From Octopus sinensis (Eukaryota), in contig NC_042998.1 of NCBI RefSeq assembly GCF_006345805.1, positions 119,536,001-119,600,000 on the forward strand: a stretch of DNA of 64,000 bases, in the 5' to 3' direction. Made by a program: the position numbers and the translations under genes. Shown here piece by piece: positions 13,489 to 54,500 of this stretch; within the stretch, counting starts at the first letter, position 1; each line of letters opens with the position of its first letter. Under the pieces are notes generated by a model that worked only from the letters and a program-made list of their open reading frames with translations, was not told the origin of the DNA and did no database searches.

Positions 13489-13570
13489 ATGTCGATCGAT
13501 CTTTTCGGGGGTAAATGGAAGCAAGACAATGTATTGCCTGATAATTTTGTAGAGTTTATGAACGCTGCAG
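13489..13570 (+). CDS. Intracellular lipid-binding protein (FABP/CRBP/CRABP family), exon 1
   Basis: ccagccATG context; MSIDLFGGKWKQDNVLPDNFVEFMNAA(G) has the GxW and NF..FM.A.G family signature; phase-1 donor cag|gtaaaa. Confidence 0.92.
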
Positions 13571-13913
13571 GTAAAAAAGAACCTTTTGGTCCCTTGTTAT
13601 TACTAATTTTGTTAGTTTTTTTTTCTGTTTCAAACTCTTCTTCTTCTACCTCCTGATTTTCGTTGATAGTGTTTGTGGACACTAAGGCTCTTAGACTTAT
13701 TCATACTAATAATATCAATCCTTCCTATTATAGACATAAGATCTAAAACTTTGTGGTGGAGGGGACTAGTCGATTACATCGATCCTAGTACCTCACTGGT
13801 ACTTTATTTTATCGAACCCGAAAGGATGAGGTATAAATTTGGCCTTGACTGGACTTGAACTCAGAACGTAAAGAAAAATAATAATAATGATGATAATAAT
13901 AATAATAATAATA

Positions 13914-13958
<45 letters not shown>

Positions 13959-13959
13959 G

Positions 13960-14300
13960 GGCCTAAGATACAAGGGGTAACACAAGACCAAATTACAAAC
14001 ACAAAAATAAGGTTAATGTCAGATCAAAAGAAATTAAGAAAAACAAGATGTAACTATTAAAAATTTCTATGAAAAAATTCCACATTAAGGAGACAGACAA
14101 GCAAAGGTAATTCGGTGAAAGCCCCACACGAAGGCCCACGTTTGCTCTGCCATATCCGGGGCATCAAAAGTACCATCTCCCAGTTTCTTTCCTCCTATTT
14201 TGTAAAGCATACTCAGGGTAGGCCCATTCGTCCTTGCTATCTACTCACTATCTACTCACTACATCTGTTTTTCATTAAACACACAAGAAGATAGCATTTC
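13960..14300 (-). mobile_element. L1/Tx1-like LINE 3' remnant
   Basis: Resembles 17500-17700 (HFKKLRVERN..RMGLP) with an A-rich tail on the minus strand. Confidence 0.45.
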
Positions 14301-16399
14301 TCTACCCTCAGTTTCTTAAAGTGGTTCTTGAAAAAGTTGATGAGAGCTAGACTAGTGAATAAAATGCTTGTTTTCAAACTTTTCCACCAGTCCACTGCAC
14401 AACTTTGGCCAAAATCCACCAGCTAGAGGAAGATAAGTGACCTTTCCTTGTTAAGAAATGTGGAACATATGTTTTCACTTCAGCCTTGGACATTAGCTTG
14501 ATTCGTTCTGCAATGCAACAGCAGCTGTTCGACACAAACCTGCAAGTAGGTAATCCACTAACACTGACGGCGTGCAAGAAGGTATTGTCGCCTTTGCGCA
14601 CATTTCGAAGAGGTTTGGCTATTGACACTTCCGTGCCAGTAGAGCTTGTCTCAAGCACGTTATTTCTCCTGAAGCACTTGCATGCCTAAAACCATTGAAA
14701 GTTATATATAGTCTCAGATTTGTAAGTTCTTTGAAATAGACTGTTCAGATTGTTTTAGTTAACGCCTAAAGTTCTTCGTAGGCCATTGCCATTCACACCC
14801 TCTACAAACCTGTAGAATACAAAAAGTGTTTTCCCGCTGATCACCAGCTTGTAGAACGCTATGGATACATAACAACATTCTAGATATCAAACACTAAACC
14901 TCGGTTCACGTTTGACACCAAGATTGCAGCTCAAAGATTCCCATGTCATTTCACTTTTGTTTTCGTCATCGTTGCTGTTGCAGTAGTCAGTATATTTCAG
15001 CAGCTCAACAGCCTCGGTGAGTGTCTGCATACCATCAGCGACGGAATCTCGAGACCACTGTGTCGTGGGTGTTGGTAACAGTTGAATTTGTTAACCAGCA
15101 GAACCTGTTCCTTCCATAAGAAGCGAAAAGATAAGCAATGTTACACAACCTAGGTAATGCCGACATTAGCGACATTCGTTTGATTTTTCAAGAACAATTT
15201 CCTCTTGACACTTGTTTAAATGTAATTTGACCACTGAACACATGCCGCTGTACAGTGTAGCGAAACTGACTACTATAGGGCAGCTGCCAAATAACGACAG
15301 TCGATCATGTTGAGCATTTTGAACTAATATAAATTGACCTGTAAAACTCCAAAATCAAATCTATTCTCGACCTGCTCTCGGTGTAGTGAATGAAGTGGAG
15401 ATTGTTGTGGATCGATCTGCCGGTGATGACAGATCTATCCACGACAGACGTCCCGACAACACTACCGACGACAATCTTGAGTTGGCTGCTTTTTGCTACA
15501 TGTATAGTACCTTGACTTTCTCCCTACAACTATCACCTGCATTTTTTCATTGTTGTCAAAAGACAAAATGGTTAGGATGCCTGTCAGGTTTTCAGGTGCG
15601 GCTAACATCTGCAACTCCAGCAATATTCCTGTTTTGTTTAGTTGAGGAGTTTATCCCACTGTTCCTCTACCATTACTATCACGCTTTCCTGGTCTCGGTG
15701 GTGTTGAATATTACTAACTTTTACGTCTGTCGCTATTTTGCCGTTGTTTAGAGGAAACGTAATAAATTCTTGGGATATGAAAACACTTGTAACCACTGTT
15801 TTGGCCTCTATCTTACTGCTTCAGATTGCAAAAACTGCCCCATGTCTTCCTCTTTCCAACTATGTTATTGTACAGTACACCTCTTACAAATTTTCTTTTG
15901 CAATCTGCGCAACTCTGAAGCATTGCAGTTTCTCTTCCATTAATGCACTTGTACATGGTCGTTCTCTTGTTTGTTTTGTTCACTTCTTCAGCTGTAAATC
16001 TCATAACGTCAGATCAAGTTATATCACCTTTGAATTCTGTCCACTGGGTTGTGACTGACGCAAACGGATTTTTTATTTTTGCTTTAGGCATCAACCCCTG
16101 TTGTTGTTGGTGTTGTTGTTGTTGTTGTCGTCGTCGTCGTCGTTGTTGTTGTTTTAGTTGTTGTTCATTTAGTTCTCTTCGTCATTATAGTTGTTAATCC
16201 TTTTGTCAGTAACTCAGAAAGTTACGCAGCAGTAACTAAAAAAAAACCAGTCGCCTTTATTCCACTGCCTTTCACCTTCTTTCTTCCTTATACACTCCCT
16301 TCAACTCCCCTTTTGATACATTTCTCACTGGAGAATATCATTATGCCTAATCAGTTTAACAGGGTTATGAACCTAACGTCCCATGACGTCGTCTGTCGG

Positions 16400-16700
16400 C
16401 ATCGACTTGCGTCCCCAGGTGCCAGAATAGCCCATCCATGCCGGATTTGCCTGGATTAATTTTTACCCCAGTTAACGCTTCCTATTCATTAAAAAAAATT
16501 TCATCACTTCGGCACCATTACGGTGGCATTGTCTGCATATGCTGACACGGCTCCCCTTCACGCCAGTTCCAACGAGGTGTCCCTCAAATCGTTAATTTTC
16601 TGTAGTGTGTCTTCAGAGTCAATAAATACATGATGGATGGAAGAGGACACACTTGACACAAATACGTGATTCGAAAAGGCTCCAGTAGTAAGTCATTTAT
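16400..16700 (-). mobile_element. L1/Tx1-like RT fragment
   Basis: Minus strand has degenerate RQVCPL..L.L..LLQK and AYADN motifs. Confidence 0.5.
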
Positions 16701-16819
16701 TCTGAATACTCAACATATGCACACTGAACTCAGAATGTAATGAATCAGAAAAAATACTGCTAGGCATTTTACCGGACGCATTAACGATTCTGCAACCGCT
16801 TTAATAATAATAATAATAA

Positions 16820-17212
16820 TTTTGGCACAAGGCCAGTAATTTCATGACGTGTGGTAAGCCGATTAGATCGACCCCAGTGCTCAACTGATACCTATTTTAT
16901 AGACCCTGAAACGATAAAAAGCAAAGTCGATCTCGGCGGTATTTGAACTCAGAACATAAAGACGGACGAAATGACGCTTAGCATTTTGCCTGGTGCGCTA
17001 ACGATTCTGCCATCTCGCCGCCGTACTAATAATGATAATAATCCTTTCTATTGGAGGCACAAGGCCTCAAATTTGAAATTTGTGGGGAGGAGTCTAGTCG
17101 GTTACATCCTACATCGACCCCAGTGTTCCACTGCTACTTAATTTATCGACCCCGAAATACCGCTAAGCATTTTGGCCGGCGTGCTAACGATTCTGCCAGC
17201 TCACCGCCTTAA
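16820..17212. repeat. Tandem SINE-like copies with (TAA)n flanks
   Basis: Repeated 'atcgacccc..tatttgaactcagaac..cgctaagcatt..gctaacgattctgcca..cgcc' also at 36950-37150, 39905-40080 and 63680-63840. Confidence 0.75.
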
Positions 17213-17213
17213 C

Positions 17214-17268
<55 letters not shown>

Positions 17269-17499
17269 GATGATGATGATGATGATGTTTTCTTTATCAA
17301 CCACGGGTTTACATTAAGAAAAACATTTTGGACAATACAGGACAAAATAAAGAATGTGTGTGATTGCGTGTTGTGAAAGTTTTGCGTGTAAACAAGTCTA
17401 ACAAATTTTTTTTTCAAGTAGGGGAAGAAAGAAATGAATTATGTGTAATCCTCAATAGGGAGGAGACGGTCGAGGGATGCTCATGGAAAAACCCCATAA

Positions 17500-18302
17500 A
17501 AAACCCATGGGCACCCTGACTTTGGGGGCAGTTGTCTTTTTTGTTTTCCTTTTTTTCAAACTACAGGTGTATGCTCAAGGTAGGCCCTTTCGCTCGCACC
17601 ATTCTCGTCACTTTTATCCATCTTTCAGAAAACTAGCTAGAAGATAACACTTCCCTCTCTATCTTTACTTTCCTTTTCAAGTGAAACTTGAAGGAGTTCA
17701 CCAGAGATTGGCCAAAGAGAAAAGCGTTTATCTTCAGCACCTTCAATCTCGTCCACCATACTACCTCTTTCGCCATGATCACCGGGCATATAAAAACAGC
17801 CTTTCCTTCCCGATTGAAGGAAGGCGGCAGGGCGATATTCACGATGGATCCAGTAGACAGCCGGATCCGTCCCGCACGCGACAGCAGGTGTTCGACATAA
17901 ACATACAGGTCAGCAATTCTCAGGCACTGGACGAGTGGATGCAGGATCGTCTCGTCGTACTGCGTACATCTCGGACATGCTCGGCTGACGGCACTTCCGT
18001 GCCTGTAAAGTTTATCTCGAATAGGCAAATCTCCCGGTAGCACTGCCGGGCCAGAGATTTTGGGACATTATCCATCGGTCCCGGCCCGAAAGTTTTCCGG
18101 AAAAGAGCGACTAGCTGATCTTCTTCGACGCCCAAAATCTCCTCAAGACGTCGTCGCACTTTTCCTCCACTAATCTTCTATAGAAAAGCTAAAGTAGACG
18201 TTCCACCTATCACACTGTCTGATTGGTTGAGGGCCGTGAGCGCTTGATGACATTCCACTTTCCAAATGCTTCTACTCGGTCTCTGTTTTACCTAGGACTG
18301 CA
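17500..18302 (-). mobile_element. L1/Tx1-clade LINE 3' fragment with zf-RVT zinc finger
   Basis: LPIRDKLYRHG..ACPRCTQYDETILHPLVQC..AKEVVWWTR is the zf-RVT C-terminus. Confidence 0.8.
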
Positions 18303-19510
18303 GTAATGATAATAATGGCTAATTGGGTAAAAGCCAAGAGAGACAAAAATCAGGTAGATTCCCTCTGTAGGTAATGTAAATCAGAAGAGGAAAGTGTTAC
18401 TCATATAGTTAGTGAATGTAGTATGCTGGCAGAAAAGGAATATAAGAAAAGACATGACAATTAGGGACAGCCAGGATAGTTAGGAAGATTCTTGCCATCT
18501 AAAGTTACTTATAGCCCGGGGTTAGGAATTTTTCTTTTACAACAGTCTAATCTGTTGTGCGTATATGAAAAAATAATAATAATCTCTCATTAGCCACAAG
18601 AGGCCTTAAATACATAGAAATAATTCATTATAGAAAAATATACAGTTATATAAAAAAAAATAAGCATGGAAATAAGGAAAGATGTAACGATTTACCTGCC
18701 ATTACCTCCGCCCACTCCCCTAAACGTTTTCTAGATCTAATAATGTTCTGCTTTTTTACTCGTAAAATTTACAATTGCTCAATCTATTCTCTGATACTTG
18801 TAATTTCTTCTTCCTCCTCCATTACCTCTTCTTCCTCTTCTCTTTCACCAGTCCCAATTTATTTATCTTTACACACCAGCTAAAATTTCTTCTCTCGCCA
18901 ACAAACAGTTCTGCCAGAAAAGTTAAATTTTTCTTCATGCAAGACAACATAAACCTTATTCCAATTATTTGAAATATATTTCTACGACGCAAAGAATTAC
19001 CAGTTTCCTCGGATTCTACTATTTTTAATTAAGTTGTGTAGACCCAGGATATCCCTGATCGAGCAGACATAGTACGAAGGAAGTCCACCAAATGATTAGG
19101 TGAGATCCACAGATCCACAGATCCATAGCTCCGGCCGTGTCAAAGTCTATTTTTTCATTTAATTTCACACTTTTCTAATAAACATTGATCTTTTTCTGAC
19201 TTAATCAGAAGAGGAAGAGCAATATCCATGACTGGTGACAGAAAAAGGAGGGTTAATCCTTAGACAAGAAACCTAGCTCAAATGCTCTCAAGAGAGTGAA
19301 CTCCACTAAAGGTACCTAAAAATCAAGTAGTGGTGTTAAACTGGACGAGGGACGAGGTTTATCACAAGAAGAAACAGGAACTGACTACTGTCACTAGTCT
19401 CGGATGACCTGCAAAGTTCACAAGGAGCACCCCTCCTTCTCCTCAGACTACACTTACTTTTTTTAAAAAAGCATAAAGTCATTATTTATAACGTTTCTTT
19501 TTCTCTGCAG

Positions 19511-19689
19511 GTATTAACAAGAACGTGCAGGACCAAGTTTCCCAAATTCGCTACATCAATGAATTTGAGGCTGATGGAGACAATTGGGTGTATAAGATCT
19601 CTGTTCAAGGAATGCCAGAAACGAAAAATTACCCCTTCAAATTCGATGAACCTTATTCATCCACTGATTTATTTGGTTCGCCTTTCAAA
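19511..19689 (+). CDS. Intracellular lipid-binding protein, exon 2
   Basis: Polypyrimidine tract then ctgcag|GT; (G)INKNVQDQVSQIRYINEFEADGDNWVYKISVQGMPETKNYPFKFDEPYSSTDLFGSPFK; DGD.W and F..DE motifs; donor AAA|gtaaga. Confidence 0.92.
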
Positions 19690-20658
19690 GTAAGAACATA
19701 TTTAATTCTTAAAACTTTTTGTCAAAAGCTACACTTAACTTTCCTTATTGTAAGCTTTACTGTTTCCCCGTTAGTTATAGCATATTAGGACAAGTACAAG
19801 AGCCAATGCCGAGCATGTTTTGGTCTTATTGGTATCTCTCCATTGAAGTATAGACGTCTCTGTAGCTGCCATAGAGAAGCTCTAAGTAAATGCACAATAA
19901 AGCACACTGGTTGACAAATAGAGTTATTCAGAGCAAAAAATTACTCGGAAACGTTCTTAAAGAAGTTTGACGTCTTATAACATTAAGAATAATGAAGGAT
20001 TAAAAGATTAGGAGAGAGAAAATTCGAAATGGAAGAAATATTATACAAAAAGAAATGACAGAAACCAGAAAAAAAAAAAGATGAACTTACTGAATATGTT
20101 GATAAAGATTTTAAACTCCTATTAGACTGCTTTGGTTTTAAATTACAATTGGAATGATAATAAAGTACTAAGAGAAGTACTATTATTTATTACCTGGTCG
20201 TGTTCAATAAACAGAAACGAACAAACACTATGGTATTAGATAGCTTCAAATTCATCAATGCTTCTATTTTCAAGAAAAAAAACACCTCTTTTCATCCTAT
20301 TTACTTTTTGAGTAGATGCTGAATCTCTTATGATTAGAATGAGTAGAATATTTTGTTATCAAAGAGCAGAAACATGACTGATGATGCATCAAAGTCCAAT
20401 ATCATTTCGTTATATAAATCCACGCCATCTTTAGTTGTTTCCATAAAAATGTATCATGATGGAAGGTCATTCGTCCACGTAAATATCTAAAACGAAGTAC
20501 ATATATGATGGGATAGTATAATAGGATTAGGGTAATAGACGGTTGCACAAAATTAGCTTCTGGTTGATTAAAATAATTTGGAGTGTTCTGAGGAGATGCA
20601 AAACATGGGAAGGGTACGCTGAGCTACAAAAAGTTGAGGCCCACTGTTTTAGTTATGA

Positions 20659-21042
20659 CTAGCAGTATCGCCCGGCGTTGCTCAGGTTTGTAAGGGAAAT
20701 AACTATAAAGCATTTTTAGAGAGTTATAGCCAAAAAATAGCAAAAAAATGGAAAAAAATGATGGTAAATTTTTTTTTGAGAGTAAAAAAAGGTTGAGTTG
20801 CGTCCCCTAGACAGTCTGTGGTTTGTTTTTTTTTATTCTCGACCCTATGTCGAATTATCGATTTTTTCAGAACTGGGGGAACTTTTCAAAATTTTCGCTG
20901 CGTTAGTTTTGAATTATGACATTGGGCTATGTGTGTGTCAAGTTTCATCAGAATCGGTTGAAAGCCGTGGTCAGGGTGAGGGTACGAGAAAACAGACACA
21001 CAGAAACACGCACAGACAAACTGCCGTTTATATAGAGAGAGA
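20659..21042 (-). mobile_element. Non-autonomous Helitron in intron 2 of the lipid-binding gene
   Basis: Same CTAG/hairpin 3' end and TC 5' end as 5603-6000. Confidence 0.8.
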
Positions 21043-21198
21043 TATATCTATCAGTGTTCATTTTCAGTGCGTGGTTTTGCAAAACATAATCTACCTATGA
21101 GTTTATTATCAGTGTGTGGTATTGTTATGTATAATCTCTGTGTCCGTTAGCAGAGTGTGGCATCGTCTGATAGAATTTTCGTATCTGTTTCTCTTTAG

Positions 21199-21309
21199 TG
21201 TGTGGTGACGAAACTTGCTGACAACAAAATACAGGAGACTATTACCGAATCGATTGGCAACAAAATGGTCGTAGTCAAAACGGTCGAGAATGATAGTACC
21301 ATGAGTACC
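21199..21309 (+). CDS. Intracellular lipid-binding protein, exon 3
   Basis: tttctctttag|TGT; CVVTKLADNKIQETITESIGNKMVVVKTVENDSTMST; donor ACC|gtaagt; 111 nt, phase 0-0. Confidence 0.9.
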
Positions 21310-22296
21310 GTAAGTAATATGACTGTGATATTTTATCATTGATTGGGTTATTGATTTAGAGTCAGTTAATTACTTCATTTATGAATTAGTTAATTAATTA
21401 GATTTAATTAGTTTTAATTAACTGCTTTGTCAGTCGATTTGTTAACAAGCAAGAGATAATGATTTACCAAGTTAGAAAATTAGCTGTTAGTTAATTAATT
21501 AAGTCGTTTGTTAATTAATAAGTTAATTAACTGCGTAGCTTGTTAGCTTTTTTTTAGCTAACTCGGCAACTAGAAAACTTGTTAATTACGTACTAACTTG
21601 GTTTATTATTCAAATAATTAGTCGATTTATAAGTTAGCTAATTAGTTAGAAACTAATAAGAGAAATAACTAATTAGCTCCTCAAAAAGTTGGCTACTTAA
21701 TGAGTTAGATAAGTAGTTATACATGTGTAATTACAGACAGAAATTAACTATTAACGTAAGTTACCAACTAAGTTAATGATTTAGTTAGCAGGTTAGTGTT
21801 GTAGTGGTAGAAACACGGTCAGAGCGCTGTTTTGTATCACTCAAACGTTATCTGCTTAACAAGGGTAGTAAACCCAAACACATTAACTAAGTGCGTAGTT
21901 ATGAAGTGAACAGCTTCTTGCACGTTGGGGAGAACTACTAACCAATTCTTGAAAACAATTAATTCTTGAAAATGTACCATGTAACGACAGAATTGCAGGG
22001 AGAATCTACTTCAACGAGGAACCGGTGAATAAGTATTCTACACATCGACAAAATGTTAAACATGGGCATATTGCCTGGAAACTGAGAACGACATCAATAT
22101 TAACAGGATGTGTATTCTCTGTTAATCACAAAAAAGTTACATGCCACATTTTGAAGCCTCATATTTTGTAATCTAAGAGAAAAACTTTCCAACAAAACAC
22201 TTTGAACAAAAAAAGATCAGTGAAGCCATTAACCAGTCAAATGTGAACAAAAATATCAATTATATTTCATGCAAAGGATAGACAATGTGTATATAG

Positions 22297-22525
22297 GCGC
22301 AAGCGTGGCTGCGTGTAGTAAGAAGTTTGCTTCCCAACCACATGGTTCTGTCTCACTGTGGGGCATCTTGAGCAAGTGTCTTCTACTATAGCCTCAGGCC
22401 GACCAAAGCCTTGTGAGTGTATTTGGTAGACGGAAACTGAAAAAAGTCCGTCGTGTGTGTCTTTGTGTCCATGTCTTTGTGTCCATATTTGTCCCCCACA
22501 ACCGCTTGACAGTTGACATTGCCGT
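22297..22525 (+). repeat. tRNA-derived SINE
   Basis: Head ggcgcaagcgtggctgcgtgtagtaagaagtttgcttcccaaccacatgg; related copies at 27750, 60190, 60870 and 61760 (minus). Confidence 0.75.
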
Positions 22526-22599
22526 AGCGGGAGATTATTCTCTCTCCAAAGCACTGCCGTAGCAACTGCATTGTTTGTCTTGCGGTATAAGCAGTTGCC

Positions 22600-22912
22600 C
22601 CATTTTGCTGGAATCATGTGTGAGGTCTACTTTGAATTGTCTTCACGTTCCCCAGACTTGACTAGCCCGGATTTTTTTCTTCTGGGGATACCAGAAAGAG
22701 AGGGTTTATATCAACAAACCGGAGACCCTGATGCAACTGAAGAACATCAATTGAAATATTAGAGAGATGGGATCTGAAACTCTTAAGGGTATTATGGTGC
22801 AAGTTTTCCATTATATCCTCTATATTGCATCAAAATGTCATGCATTTATTTGTAAAGTTAAGAAAGTTATTAAAAATTAAAACCCATAAGTGACTTTTGG
22901 GACACCCTGTAT
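22600..22912 (+). mobile_element. Tc1/mariner 3' remnant
   Basis: SRSPDLTSPDFFLLG motif; ends with TIR-like gacttttgggacaccctg followed by ta. Confidence 0.7.
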
Positions 22913-23656
22913 AATACCGTCTATAGAAAGAATTTGGGTTAAATATCAAAATAAGTATACCTCACATTGAGCACAGCCAAACTTAACTGTGCCAGGGATA
23001 TAACAAAATACCGGGTGAGCCAAAAGTCATGCATCGAGATTAAAACTCAATATATATTACATATTTCGAAAACAATTATTATTGTCGGTTCACAATATTA
23101 ATTGCCATAATTCTGCATTGTATTTAACTGAGAATAGATACTCAAATCATTAACTGAGCTAAGAAAGAAAATGTCATCTTCCCTTTGTAGCTCCTTAATA
23201 AACAAAGGCCATATGCATTGTTGTATAGACTTTCCCTGGGCGTGTGGTTCTCCTCGTGAGCCTAGAGTAGCTGGGTTGACCTACTTAAAACTTGGTGAAG
23301 AAATACTTATCATACCAGCAGTAAGTTATGCATAGTATCATATACCGAAAGATGGGGAATATCGAAAACACTGACAGGATTTGTAGCCTCTCCTGGACAT
23401 ACAACGTATACATCCTCACTTGGAAGGCCATGCCCCTGTTATTTAGGAGCGGGAAATAGCTATTAAGTATCTGATCAGCAAGAGACAATCGTCGGGGAAG
23501 AGCAGTCGACTATATAATAAGTTGTACTGGATGGCATATTACCAGTAGCACTCAAAACCACCTTAATGCGTACATGCATTCATTGGCATACATACATACA
23601 TACATACATACATACATACATACATACATACATACATACATACATACATACATACA

Positions 23657-23689
<33 letters not shown>

Positions 23690-23727
23690 GCAAACATATA
23701 TGTATACACTCATGTATACATATATAT

Positions 23728-24931
23728 ATCAGGCCATCCCATAAGTTTTGTCCGAATTTTGAATAAAGAAAATAAGTGATCAAATGTTATATTTAATTGA
23801 AATATAACCATCAGTGTGCTTTCCCTGATTATCTATAACTTCCTTCCATCTATTTACAAGCTTTTTAACCCCATCAATGTAAAACTCTTTTGGTTTCAAA
23901 GCAAAGAACTCTGAAATGTTAGTTTTGACCTCCTCCTGGCTTGCAAAAGTTATATCCCCCAAATGATTGTGTAAACTACGAAACATATGGTAGTCTGAAG
24001 GAGCAAGGTCAGGGGAATAAGGTGGAAGAAGAATTTTTTCCCAACCAAGCTCTTCGATCTTCTGTGATGTGATCTTTGCAGTGTGGGGTCGCGCATTGTC
24101 CTGATGAAACATCACTCCTTTTCGATTCACTAAAGCGGGTCTTTTTTCCTTCAAAGCTTGGTTCAAACGCTCTCCCACCAGATAAAGAGAAGAACCTTTT
24201 TCCAAAGAAGTTCCCTTCTCGGTTGTGGTTGCGCTTTTTTTCTTTTTTACCAAGCCACTGTTTACGATGTTTAACATTTCGATAGAAGATCCATTTTTCG
24301 TCACCAGTCACAAGTCTATCCAAAAAGGGTGAAATGAGTTCACGAGAATGGAGAAAAGAGCAGATGTCAACTCGGGATTTGCGGTTGCTTTCGGACAATT
24401 CAAGAGGCACCCATTTTCCAAGTTTAGGAACCTTTCCAAGTTGTTGAAGAAGATGATGAAAAGTTGTATGGTTTGAACTAGGCTTTATTGCCAATTCTTC
24501 AGCTGATAGTGCAGGATTTTATTCCAGTAATACCTCAAGGAGCTTATCATCAAACTAAACTGGACGTCCTGTTCGATCTTCAAGGCTGAAATCTCCACTT
24601 CTGAATTTTGCAAACCATCTTCTGCAAGTTCTTTCATTCAAGTATTCTTTCCCATAAACTGAGTATATGTTTCGAGTCGCTTCGGCTGCAGAGTTTCCAT
24701 TTTTGTACTCATAAAGCATTATGTGCCTCAAATGCTCTTTGGATACTAATATGTGAGAAAGGGTTTTAATCAAAGAACTTTTAATTCTATTATTCTGCAA
24801 AATAATATTTAATTAGTACACAAATGCATAAAAAAATAATTTTAATTCCATTAGACATCCTAAAATACTATTAAATTTCATTCAATTTTAAAAAAGGTAA
24901 AATCGGGCAGAACTTATGGGATGACCTGATA
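23728..24931 (-). mobile_element. Full-length mariner (DD34D) transposon with frameshifted transposase, in intron 3
   Basis: TIRs atcaggccatcccataagttttgtccga and tcgggcagaacttatgggatgacctgat in TA context; HLRHIMLYEY..RWFAKFRSG, WVPLEL, LVTGDEKW, HQDNARPH, then 34 aa to the D of YSPDLAPSD. Confidence 0.95.
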
Positions 24932-25093
24932 TATAAATCCCTATATACAGCTATACACGTACATGGACGCGCCTGCAATCATACATACCCACACACCCAC
25001 ACACACATACATTATATACGTATACATTCATACATACATATGACTATAAAACGTTTTCATAAATTTTTTCCTTAATTATCTTTTCTGTTTCAG

Positions 25094-25144
25094 GTAACAA
25101 CAGCTGGAGATGTGTCATGTAGAATAAAGTTTACAAAAATGTGA
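25094..25144 (+). CDS. Intracellular lipid-binding protein, exon 4 (stop)
   Basis: ttttctgtttcag|GTA; VTTAGDVSCRIKFTKM* resembles CRBP-II LTCGDQVCRQVFKKK; total CDS 423 nt = 140 aa. Confidence 0.88.
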   Translation, partial: VTTAGDVSCRIKFTKM

Positions 25145-25151
25145 AAATTCT

Positions 25152-25168
25152 AATAAAGCCATAATAAA
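25152..25168 (+). terminator. Polyadenylation signals (AATAAA x2)
   Basis: AATAAA at 25152-25157 and 25163-25168, just after the stop codon. Confidence 0.55.
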
Positions 25169-51584: not shown

Positions 51585-54500
51585 GCTACAACAAGTAACC
51601 TTAGATGCCAAGAATCCTCCTATCGGGCTACAACAAGTAACCTTGGATGCCAAAAACCCTCGTAAGTATCTTAGCTGTCCCTAATAACACTGTTTTCTGG
51701 AGGTGGTGTACTATAGTGGGTTTTATGCCTATTTCCTCTATCCATCTGTTCAGATCTTTAGGGATAATTCCCAATGCACATTTTATCCGCACTTTCCATA
51801 GTCTCTGTAATTCAATAGCTAGGTCCTGGTACTATTTTTTCTATACTTCTCGTATTAATGCTTTCATCATTGGGGACTGTAAAGTCAATTATCTGACACT
51901 TTCTATTCCCTTTATCTACTACTACCAAATCAGGCCTTCTAGCTGCTATTACTTTGTCAGTCTGAATGTTGAAGTCCCGCATCTTATATTTCTTATTTTC
52001 TAGTACTTTACTAGGTACGTGTTCATACCATTTATCAGTCTGTTCAAATCCTAGCTTACTACATAACTCCCAGGGGATTACTCTTCCTAGGTTGTCATGT
52101 CTTTTCTTGTATTCTTTCTATGCCAAGATGCTACATTCTCTTACTGTGTGAGTAACGCTTTCCTCTTTTGATTTGCATATTCCACATTGGGAATCTACTT
52201 GGTTTTTGCGTATTAGTCCTTAATGCATGGTCTTGTGCAGCAACTAACAAACTTCGTCTCCCTCTTCAGCTTTCCTTTCTGCAACCATAACCAAGTCTCA
52301 CTACTACTATTTGCTGAAACTATTTTGGGGAATCTAACAGGCAACACCTTCTCCTGCCAGTCAGATAATTTCTGGAGTTTTTTTTCTGCTTTTAACTTCG
52401 CTTGGGTTTTTGTTTTCCTATGTCTTGCTGTGACTCTAGCAGCTTTTAATAAACTTTCTTCACTATTACCTACATAAGAGTTTATATCTACTCTAGCTAA
52501 CTCCACACAGTCTTCTACTGATATTAAACCGCTTCTGTCTTCCTTTCCAGGTAGGTATATTATTGCTACTCCGGCCCTTGGGTAGAGTCTTTTTGTCCAA
52601 TCTACAAAAGCTGCTGAGTATCTAAGTAATGATACTGCTCAATTATTTACAGCCTTTACAAGATTCGGACCATTTAGCTTTGACTTCATTGTCTTCCTCA
52701 CCCTTCTGATGCATTCCTTCTCAATTTTCGTATTCATTTCTGTAGTTAGTATTTTGTCAGATTCTAATACTTCTAGATATTTATAACTCTCTCCTTTCAA
52801 TGATTTTAATGTCTGGCCACCTGGTAATTTGATACCTTTGCTGTTGACTACCTGTCCCCTTCTCATCATTAATATTGCACACTTATCTATACCAAATTCT
52901 ATGCCTATATCTTTGCTGAAGAGTCTTACAGTCTGTATTAAGGAATCTATCTCTTTTTCAGTCTTATTAAAAAGAGCAAATGGTTAATTTTTCCCTTATT
53001 ATTTCTGAACTGATACCCTGCCTTTGCCTTCTTTAACACTAAACTGAGTGGGATCAACCATAAGACAAATATTAAAGGGGACAACGATTCCCCCTGGAAA
53101 ATTTCCCTTTTGATATTAACTTTCTCTGACAGTGTGTCACCTGAGTAGATATCTACTTTCCATTTCTTCATGCTACGGCTAATTAATTCTCTTATGTTAT
53201 CCACTATACTGAATATACTCAACCCTTCACTTATCCATGAGTGTGGGAAAATGTCATAGGCTTTCCTATAATCCATCCTTGCTATTGTTAGAGTTTTCTT
53301 TCTAGCTTTTACTTCATTTAGAACTGCTTTGTCTATGTATAACAGATCATGCTTTCCTCTATCCTTCTTCCTGCAACCTTTCTGTTCTTCTGGCAGTAAA
53401 TTCTGGTTGTCAAGGTGCTTGTAAATACTTTCTGAAAGCATTCCTGTTAACAGCTTCCACACTAATGGTAAGCAGGTGATTGGTCTATAGTTACTAGCAG
53501 TATTACTCTTGCTCTTATCTTTCATGACAAGCATTGACCTGCCTCTAGCCATCCAATCTGGTATTATTCCTCCATTAAGACAATGTTGAAGTCGTTCTCT
53601 CAGCCTCCCATGTAAACTACTAAATTTCTTTAGCCAGTACCCTTGAACTAAATTTGGTTCTGGACCCTTCCAACTCGGCATTTTCCCTAACACTTTACTC
53701 ATTAATGCACTAGTGAGTCTTAGATCTGGCTGCTTCTCACTTTTTTTAACCATATTGCATCTCGATTATGATTGACTGGCTAATCCTAAATATTGCTCAA
53801 GAACTTTCTAGCTTCTTCTGCATTAGGTTTCTCATCTTCAGTACTTCGTTCTACACTATTTATTTGGTTATAAAATCTCCTCTGGTTTGTCTCAAATAAT
53901 CTATTCTATTGATACTGATCTATTCTTTTCTGTTATCTGGAGAGCTTGTCAGCTACTGCTATGATACACTGTTTCAACTCTTCTATTACTGTCCCAATTC
54001 CTTTCTCTTTGACTAAGTATCTTTTCTCGATCTTGTGTTACCTAACTTGTTCAACTTCCAGGCTTCTGTTCTACTCAGATTGTGTCTTAAAGTCTTCACT
54101 TTATTTTGTAGTCCCCTTTTCCACATTTGCTCTTTTTTAATCTTTCCCTGTGAGATAACTAATCTTCTAGAGACTACTACCCCTCCTGCATAGATCAGTA
54201 AATTAATGTCTCCTTTATTTTTAGTATCTATCCAACTGGTAACATGACTACTTTCCTAGTCATTTCTAGCAGCTTCCTTCTGATGGCACCTTTTAATGCT
54301 GACAATCTTTTCTTTTACTTCTTCACTCATTACTTCCTGCAACTCATCTAAAATCTTCAGAGCTTCCTCACTTACATCACTTAAGTCGCTGGTGCCAGTT
54401 ATCCCTTCCTTATTATTAGCGCTATTATTATTTTTTCCTTTAGATTCTTCTTTGGTTTGTGCTGTGTCTCTTATATGGGTGTTTGTCTTTCCTACTGTCT

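What the first reader, a model, noticed from the sequence alone, without database searches (positions are those of the whole stretch)
13489..25144. Lipid-binding protein with a natural 'rhodopsin-mimic' pocket: Lys/Ile/Phe replaces the Arg/Arg/Tyr triad
Seen: the C-terminal segment KTVENDSTMSTVTTAGDVSCRIKF aligns without gaps to human CRABP-II RELTNDGELILTMTADDVVCTRVY (recalled from memory). This places K114 at R111, I135 at R132 and F137 at Y134 (CRBP-II Q108/Q128/F130). Established: R111/R132/Y134 bind the ligand carboxylate, and engineered CRABP-II R111K:R132L:Y134F and CRBP-II Q108K mutants bind retinal as a Schiff base with tunable colour. E100 aligns with CRBP-II C95 and might face the pocket as a counter-ion. 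Inference: this may not be an ordinary fatty-acid carrier but a natural covalent retinal/aldehyde or pigment-binding protein, which would be notable in an animal with a retinochrome-based visual cycle and photosensitive skin.
Basis: partly seen in the sequence, partly recalled or inferred. Interest (0 to 1): 0.75.

Follow-up and report, generated by a model that had tools for sequence, protein, structure and literature searches.

The report
Octopus lipid carrier with buried lysine
This intact, spliced octopus gene encodes a small barrel-shaped lipid-binding protein with a lysine where engineers place one to capture retinal, but most of that pocket is inherited from an old mollusc subfamily, so it is likely an ordinary non-covalent carrier of an uncharged lipid; covalent retinal binding remains an untested, cheap-to-test long shot.

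Summary
Four exons give a 140-aa intracellular lipid-binding protein (O. sinensis XP_036354918), spliced in 4 of 4 runs laid. K114/I135/F137 align with CRABP-II R111/R132/Y134, and K114 and E100 are predicted to face inward.

Among 32 dereplicated relatives, Arg at 135 is rare (4/32), Phe at 137 is the commonest residue (11/32) and an acid at 100 is the norm (25/32). E100 and the lost Arg/Tyr clamp therefore predate the lysine; E100 likely pairs with an ancestral Arg114 (27/32). K114 is a one-base AGA-to-AAA change against a head-to-head Arg paralogue 91.5 kb away. Lys recurs in Argonauta and Mytilus, always beside an acid. The mimics' stabilising Trp is Val here, and cephalopods already have a retinal shuttle of another fold.

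Best reading (0.6): a non-covalent carrier of a neutral-headed lipid with an internal Glu-Lys ion pair. A natural covalent retinal or aldehyde binder (about 0.12) is not excluded: pocket-lining residues are held while the surface drifts, and a Lys-Glu pair is the opsin arrangement.

The parts
13489..13570 (+). exon 1 (ATG; GxW motif G8-K9-W10; helix I); phase-1 intron follows
   Evidence: transcript loose ends
19511..19689 (+). exon 2 (helix II, strands B-E; Y42 codon 19552-19554 aligns with engineered P39Y; N44, I57, K66, S78, D80)
21199..21309 (+). exon 3 (strands F-I)
21235..21237 (+). E100 codon (GAG), strand G; acid in 25 of 32 dereplicated relatives; predicted ion-pair partner of residue 114
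21271..21273 (+). V112 codon; position of CRABP-II W109 / CRBP-II W106, which stabilises the cis protonated Schiff base in the mimics
21277..21279 (+). K114 codon (AAA; AGA = Arg in the paralogue), strand H, equivalent to CRABP-II R111
25094..25144 (+). exon 4 coding part (strand J; I135 at 25124-25126, F137 at 25130-25132; TGA stop)
25152..25168 (+). two AATAAA polyadenylation-signal matches just after the stop
   Evidence: use not tested

Best explanation
The gene encodes an intact, spliced cytosolic lipid-binding barrel protein of a mollusc subfamily that lacks the fatty-acid Arg/Tyr clamp, and it likely carries an uncharged or weakly polar lipid non-covalently, with K114 predicted to be a conservative stand-in for the subfamily's Arg in a buried ion pair with E100. 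Shown: gene structure, splicing, fold, residue equivalences, the residue distribution in the clade, and the Arg paralogue. Inferred: the E100-K114 contact (same face of neighbouring strands G and H; acid and base kept or lost together); a net-neutral pocket floor like that of the retinol-binding CRBPs; ligand class (sterol, alcohol, monoacylglycerol, carotenoid or retinoid, not identified); specialisation of the ligand after tandem duplication.
For: Fold: pLDDT 91.8, ten strands and two helices; best structural match Schistosoma Sm14, Z 20.9, rmsd 1.7 over 134 residues, tied with FABP7, P2 and FABP4. In 32 relatives dereplicated at 70%: position 100 is E/D in 25; position 114 is R 27, K 3, S 1, Y 1; position 135 is R in only 4, all with Q100 and Y137. 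Acid-100 and Arg-135 never co-occur (0/25 vs 4/7, Fisher p = 0.001, rows not independent). All 3 Lys lineages keep an acid at 100, and one octopus lineage lost both (Q100/S114). The paralogue differs by AGA vs AAA and lies head-to-head 91.5 kb away. The three octopod Lys proteins are rejected as one clade (p-AU 0.0013). The strand-J Arg marks iLBPs that bind acids, and CRBP1, which binds neutral ligands, lacks it (PMC10197203, passages). An FABP-like neutral carotenoid carrier exists in sea urchin (PMC4156332, passages). Cephalopod retinal shuttling is assigned to RALBP, a CRAL-TRIO protein (PMC8628405, passages).
Against: No ligand or tissue is known. Engineered R111K mimics outscore wild-type CRABP-II against this protein (E 2.6e-7 vs 5.5e-5), and it matches M2 at K, F and Y and in kind at two more of its six changes. 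Between O. sinensis and O. bimaculoides only 4 of 35 inward strand positions differ, all mildly, against 10 of 35 outward (p = 0.13), so the Lys pocket is being kept. Side-chain contacts were not measured, because the tool returns no coordinates. A Glu beside the Lys is also what opsins use (recalled).
Confidence: 0.6

Rival explanations
1. Natural covalent retinal or aldehyde binder: K114 forms a protonated Schiff base with E100 as counter-ion. The clade's earlier loss of Arg132/Tyr134 and gain of Glu100 would have left it one base change from a rhodopsin-like pocket.
For: K114, F137 and Y42 are identical to three of the six M2 mimic changes; I57 and I135 are similar in kind. The CRBP-II K40 position that must be removed for Schiff-base formation (PMC13224928, PMC11334107, passages) is non-basic N44 here (equivalence through CRABP-II V41, numbering recalled). 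An acid near the iminium raised its pKa to 11.2 in an engineered variant. Lys recurs in O. bimaculoides, Argonauta and Mytilus. The gene diverges faster than its paralogue (29/140 vs 6/140 differences, p = 4e-5) while keeping its lining.
Against: E100, the nonpolar or small residue at 135 and F137 are shared with Arg114 relatives, which cannot form a Schiff base there; 4 of the 5 relatives with nonpolar 135 plus F137 have Arg. Y42 is not shared by the other Lys lineages (L, T). W109/W106 is Val. An acid at another nearby site (K40E) gave no protonated Schiff base. The mimic-first ranking does not hold for the O. bimaculoides orthologue (Sm14 E 4e-7, mimics 4e-3) or the Argonauta Lys protein, and no CRABP-II entry is among the top 50 VIA rows. 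RALBP already fills the shuttle role.
Confidence: 0.12
2. Fatty-acid or other anion carrier working in the intestinal-FABP (FABP2) mode: the strand-H base alone (K114, Arg in relatives) anchors the carboxylate, without the strand-J clamp.
For: FABP2 ligands contact the strand-H Arg R106 (PMC10197203). A base is kept at 114 in 30 of 32 relatives. R122Q in FABP1 only moderately lowers fatty-acid binding. The family matches Pfam Lipocalin_7 in 24 of 36 members.
Against: The adjacent acid at 100 is predicted to neutralise the base, and D80 adds a second inward acid. Loss of the strand-J Arg abolishes acid binding in CRABP2 and cuts it more than tenfold in FABP4.
Confidence: 0.22
3. A duplicate under relaxed constraint, in which K114 is simply tolerated drift and the ligand is the same as the paralogue's.
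For: About five times more change than the paralogue between the same two species. dN/dS against the paralogue is 0.285/0.585, about 0.49. Arg and Lys alternate within the octopod subclade.
Against: Intact frame and spliced transcripts in four studies. The lining is conserved between species, yet 13 of 35 inward positions differ from the paralogue, which suggests a different ligand.
Confidence: 0.06

Closest known systems
Annotated octopod iLBP models: O. sinensis XP_036354918.1 (this gene), O. bimaculoides XP_014767887.1, Arg paralogue XP_029658036.1, Argonauta GAB1606537.1 and GAB1598891-3
   Same: Identical or 38-79% identical; same clade
   Different: Automatic names only; no ligand, tissue or pocket study found
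Engineered rhodopsin mimics hCRABPII M2 (R111K:Y134F:T54V:R132Q:P39Y:R59Y; PDB 4YFP, 6Z2U) and hCRBPII Q108K:K40L
   Same: Same fold; Lys at 111, Phe at 134, Tyr at 39, nonpolar residue at 54, no Arg at 132
   Different: 26% identity; Glu at the 95 position and Val for Trp109; several lining residues differ; imine formation shown for the mimics only
Canonical FABPs (Schistosoma Sm14 1VYF, squid ReP1-NCXSQ 3PPT, FABP3/4/7, P2) and CRABPs
   Same: Closest solved folds (Z about 20); four-exon gene
   Different: They keep the Arg/Arg/Tyr carboxylate clamp; this protein has K/I/F plus E100
CRBP1/2 and the sea-urchin echinenone-binding protein EBP (PMC4156332)
   Same: iLBPs that carry uncharged polyenes non-covalently; CRBP1 lacks the strand-J Arg
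   Different: CRBP1 uses Gln108/Gln128 rather than a Glu-Lys/Arg pair; EBP's pocket residues were not compared here; no orthology shown
Cephalopod RALBP and molluscan RLBP1 (PMC8628405)
   Different: CRAL-TRIO fold, unrelated to this protein

Membership tests
iLBP/FABP family | Ten-stranded barrel with helix-turn-helix lid | tested here: met
   10 strands, 2 helices; Z 20.9, rmsd 1.7, 134 aligned
iLBP/FABP family | N-terminal GxW motif | tested here: met
   G8-K9-W10; G8 and W10 nearly invariant
iLBP/FABP family | Four exons, three introns | tested here: met
   canonical structure per PMC10197203 and PMC3796463
iLBP/FABP family | Pfam Lipocalin or Lipocalin_7 above the curated cut-off | tested here: inconclusive
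   PF14651 20.8 bits vs cut-off 25.4; the family profile hits FABPs at 1e-28
Canonical acid-binding FABP / CRABP | Strand-H Arg plus strand-J Arg-x-Tyr clamp | tested here: not met
   K114, I135, F137
Schiff-base rhodopsin mimic (works-like comparison) | Inward Lys at CRABP-II 111 / CRBP-II 108 | tested here: met
   alignment and strand parity; no coordinates inspected
Schiff-base rhodopsin mimic (works-like comparison) | No competing Arg132/Tyr134 and no second pocket Lys at 40 | tested here: met
   I135, F137, N44; K66 is of inward parity on strand D and was not resolved
Schiff-base rhodopsin mimic (works-like comparison) | Trp106/109 stabilising the cis iminium | tested here: not met
   V112
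Schiff-base rhodopsin mimic (works-like comparison) | Forms a retinylidene adduct with red-shifted absorbance | not testable with these tools
   needs recombinant protein; retinal is not an available ligand in the complex tool
Visual-cycle retinal shuttle | Expression in photoreceptor or skin cells | tested here: inconclusive
   runs are coded and hold contigs only
RALBP/RLBP1 | CRAL-TRIO domain | tested here: not met
   the iLBP barrel covers residues 1-140

The most novel reading that the evidence does not exclude
Octopods, and independently mussels, evolved a natural soluble rhodopsin-like pocket: a mollusc subfamily that had already swapped the carboxylate clamp for a buried Glu gained a Lys by one base change, giving a protein that binds retinal or another aldehyde covalently at the very site later chosen by protein engineers.
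Probability: 0.12. Interest if true: 0.8.

Novelty: new variant of a known kind. Interest (0 to 1): 0.36.

Why it matters
If K114 forms a Schiff base in vivo, this would be a natural counterpart of two decades of engineered iLBP rhodopsin mimics. It would add a soluble covalent retinal store or photoreceptive protein to cephalopod biology and a new scaffold for fluorogenic tags. If not, the useful result is smaller: a widespread molluscan iLBP subfamily has replaced the Arg/Tyr clamp with a Glu-Arg/Lys floor, its ligands are unknown, and this gene with its Arg paralogue makes a natural test pair.

Tried and rejected
Tissue test. The run search listed no holder on record as RNA, and samples are coded. 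All 4 runs that hold this transcript also hold rhodopsin. Contig depths were 6970, 251, 576 and 5 for this gene and 241, 2151, 488-885 and 14 for rhodopsin. They do not rise together, but contig depth cannot rank genes, so this is not used as evidence.

Single exons found no iLBP match in PDB or Pfam (one search tested exon 2 only). The Crass_capsid hit is below its cut-off and rejected given the fold. 'The top PDB hit is a rhodopsin mimic' was rejected as a robust signal after controls with the paralogue, the orthologue and the Argonauta Lys protein. The tree cannot fix the order of events: grouping this gene with Argonauta P0012/P0049/P0015 is not rejected (p-AU 0.47), so Lys was either gained twice or gained once and lost. 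No further copy of the family was seen in the window or in 200 kb fetched around it. Orthologues from more octopod genera or squids were not identified by name.

Literature. No paper holds the six accession terms searched. The listings showed no natural Lys/Schiff-base iLBP and no description of this clade; these were listings only, and subscription papers are not searched. Four primary mimic papers were not held. bioRxiv supplements are closed and no supplements were read, so expression tables there could bear on tissue. Four look-ups in earlier findings showed nothing relevant. No cavity volume, pKa or docking was computed, because no coordinates are returned.
Full report
Observation. The finding's span runs exactly from ATG to stop of a four-exon gene (13489-13570, 19511-19689, 21199-21309, 25094-25144; GT-AG introns, phases 1, 0, 0; 140 codons). 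The product is identical to XP_036354918.1, 'fatty acid-binding protein-like' of Octopus sinensis. Contigs of 4 of 4 public runs laid, from four studies, skip the 1509-base intron 2, and their loose ends read exons 1 and 4. The runs' RNA status is a guess by the tool, but the splice joint shows a processed transcript. AlphaFold2 gives a full iLBP barrel (pLDDT 91.8, ten strands, two helices). The best structural matches are Sm14, FABP7, P2 and FABP4 (Z about 20).

Residue mapping. The pairwise alignment to solved CRABP-II chains is ungapped over the C-terminal segment and puts K114, I135 and F137 on 111, 132 and 134. It also puts Y42 on engineered P39Y, I57 on T54V and V112 on W109. E100 maps to the C95 column by family profile and to Q97 pairwise. 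I assigned strand faces by alternation, anchored on these pocket sites. The inward set is more hydrophobic across the family (mean Kyte-Doolittle 0.72 vs -1.07), and it includes E100, K114, I135 and F137. This is inference from parity; no coordinates were available.

What the relatives show. Searches returned 35 representatives and further proteins; the named ones are from octopods, scallop, oysters, mussels and a chiton. Of 60 aligned domains I dropped those with gaps at the four key sites and those 70% or more identical to a row already kept, leaving 32. Position 135 is Arg in 4 of 32, and all four have Gln100 and Tyr137, the canonical type. Position 100 is Glu or Asp in 25 of 32, never together with Arg135 (0/25 vs 4/7, p = 0.001). 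The rows are related and were chosen by similarity to the query, so this may reflect one ancient change. Position 137 is Phe in 11 and Tyr in 8. Position 114 is Arg 27, Lys 3, Ser 1, Tyr 1. The Lys rows (this gene, Argonauta GAB1606537, a Mytilus protein) all have an acid at 100, and one octopus lineage has lost both (Gln100/Ser114). Two of the three 'mimic' changes, and the proposed counter-ion, are therefore older than the lysine and sit in proteins that keep Arg114.

Origin of the lysine. The closest paralogue in the same genome (57% identical) lies head-to-head, its start codon 91.5 kb from this one, with the same exon lengths. It has AGA where this gene has AAA. The three octopod Lys proteins do not form one clade (p-AU 0.0013), but grouping this gene with the Argonauta trio, one Lys and two Arg, is not rejected (p-AU 0.47). 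Arg and Lys have thus switched at least twice in a small subclade, and separately in mussels. Between O. sinensis and O. bimaculoides this gene differs at 29 of 140 residues against 6 of 140 for the paralogue (p = 4e-5). Only 4 of 35 inward strand positions changed, all mildly, against 10 of 35 outward (p = 0.13), while 13 of 35 inward positions differ from the paralogue. This fits a duplicate that took on a different ligand and now keeps its pocket; it does not single out K114.

Mechanism. In human iLBPs the strand-J Arg marks binders of acids; R132A or R132Q abolishes retinoic-acid binding in CRABP2, and CRBP1, a binder of neutral ligands, uses Gln (PMC10197203, passages). E100 on strand G and K114 on strand H share a face and, by the hairpin register of solved FABPs (recalled), are diagonal neighbours. 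I infer a buried ion pair that leaves a net-neutral, hydrogen-bonding floor, suited to a hydroxyl or carbonyl head group held non-covalently (0.6). A natural FABP-like carrier of a neutral keto-carotenoid is known in sea urchin (PMC4156332, passages). A FABP2-like mode, with the strand-H base alone holding a carboxylate, is the main ordinary rival (0.22).

The covalent reading. In its favour: the Lys is at the engineered site, the clamp is gone, the CRBP-II K40 site is Asn, and an acid near the iminium can raise its pKa (PMC13224928 and PMC11334107, passages). Opsins pair their Lys with a Glu (recalled). Against it: the Trp that stabilises the cis iminium is Val; an acid at another adjacent site prevented protonation; Y42 is not shared by the other Lys lineages; and the mimic-first ranking fails for the orthologue and the Argonauta protein, although mimics still precede wild-type CRABP-II for the orthologue. 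Cephalopods already have RALBP, a CRAL-TRIO shuttle (PMC8628405, passages), and the main text of a squid visual-system atlas does not mention FABP, CRABP or lipocalin (PMC12240821, term search). No tissue evidence was obtained. I put an in-vitro adduct at roughly one in three and a physiological covalent role at 0.12; both are judgements.

Papers seen. Passages only: PMC13224928, PMC11334107, PMC8906800, PMC10197203, PMC8628405, PMC3796463, PMC4156332, PMC4581086, PMC12669781, PMC12240821, and bioRxiv 2023.11.03.565439, 2022.02.16.480777 and 2026.02.02.703354. All others were seen as search listings. No supplements were read. The mutant compositions come from PDB titles.

Verdict. A real, expressed, already annotated iLBP gene with a correctly spotted and uncommon buried lysine. 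It is best filed as a new variant of a known kind, inside a molluscan Glu-Arg subfamily whose ligands were not found described in the searches made. Interest 0.36: the likely answer is ordinary, but the striking alternative can be settled with one expression and one absorbance experiment, using the Arg paralogue as control.

Noticed in passing
alignment A3 and relatives: A widespread molluscan iLBP subfamily has an acid at the CRABP-II 95 position and lacks Arg132; acid-100 and Arg-135 are mutually exclusive in 32 relatives. Octopods hold at least five paralogous lineages.
   Followed up: partly
G000:C2:119433901-119457938 (-), loci L014, L015, L005: Intact Arg114 paralogue (XP_029658036), head-to-head with this gene, same exon lengths.
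   Followed up: yes
P0035, P0059 (Mytilus): Mussel proteins with Asp100/Lys114 and Trp at 98: an independent Lys version worth testing beside the octopus one.
   Followed up: no
window 23780-24518 (-), intron 3: Broken DDE-transposase (Pfam DDE_3) remnant, Tc1/mariner-like by recall, over two frames.
   Followed up: partly
window 17633-18067 (-) and 52947-53765 (-): LINE-type reverse-transcriptase remnants (zf-RVT below cut-off, RVT_1 above).
   Followed up: partly
window 20660-21050, intron 2: A repeat that is very deep in three of the four laid runs, likely an abundant transcribed SINE- or MITE-like element.
   Followed up: no
P0004, P0005 (O. vulgaris, O. bimaculoides isoform X2): Shorter 120-121 aa models replace exon 1 with another start and lack strand A and helix I; real alternative first exon or prediction artefact not tested.
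   Followed up: no
bioRxiv 2026.02.02.703354: Octopod SF1 venom-peptide arrays are reported to be flanked by an FABP gene; whether it is this cluster or another was not checked.
   Followed up: no
L025:2159-2254 (rhodopsin exon): Three single-base differences (two A>G, one C>T on the + strand) between run contigs and the genome; most likely alleles or species differences.
   Followed up: no
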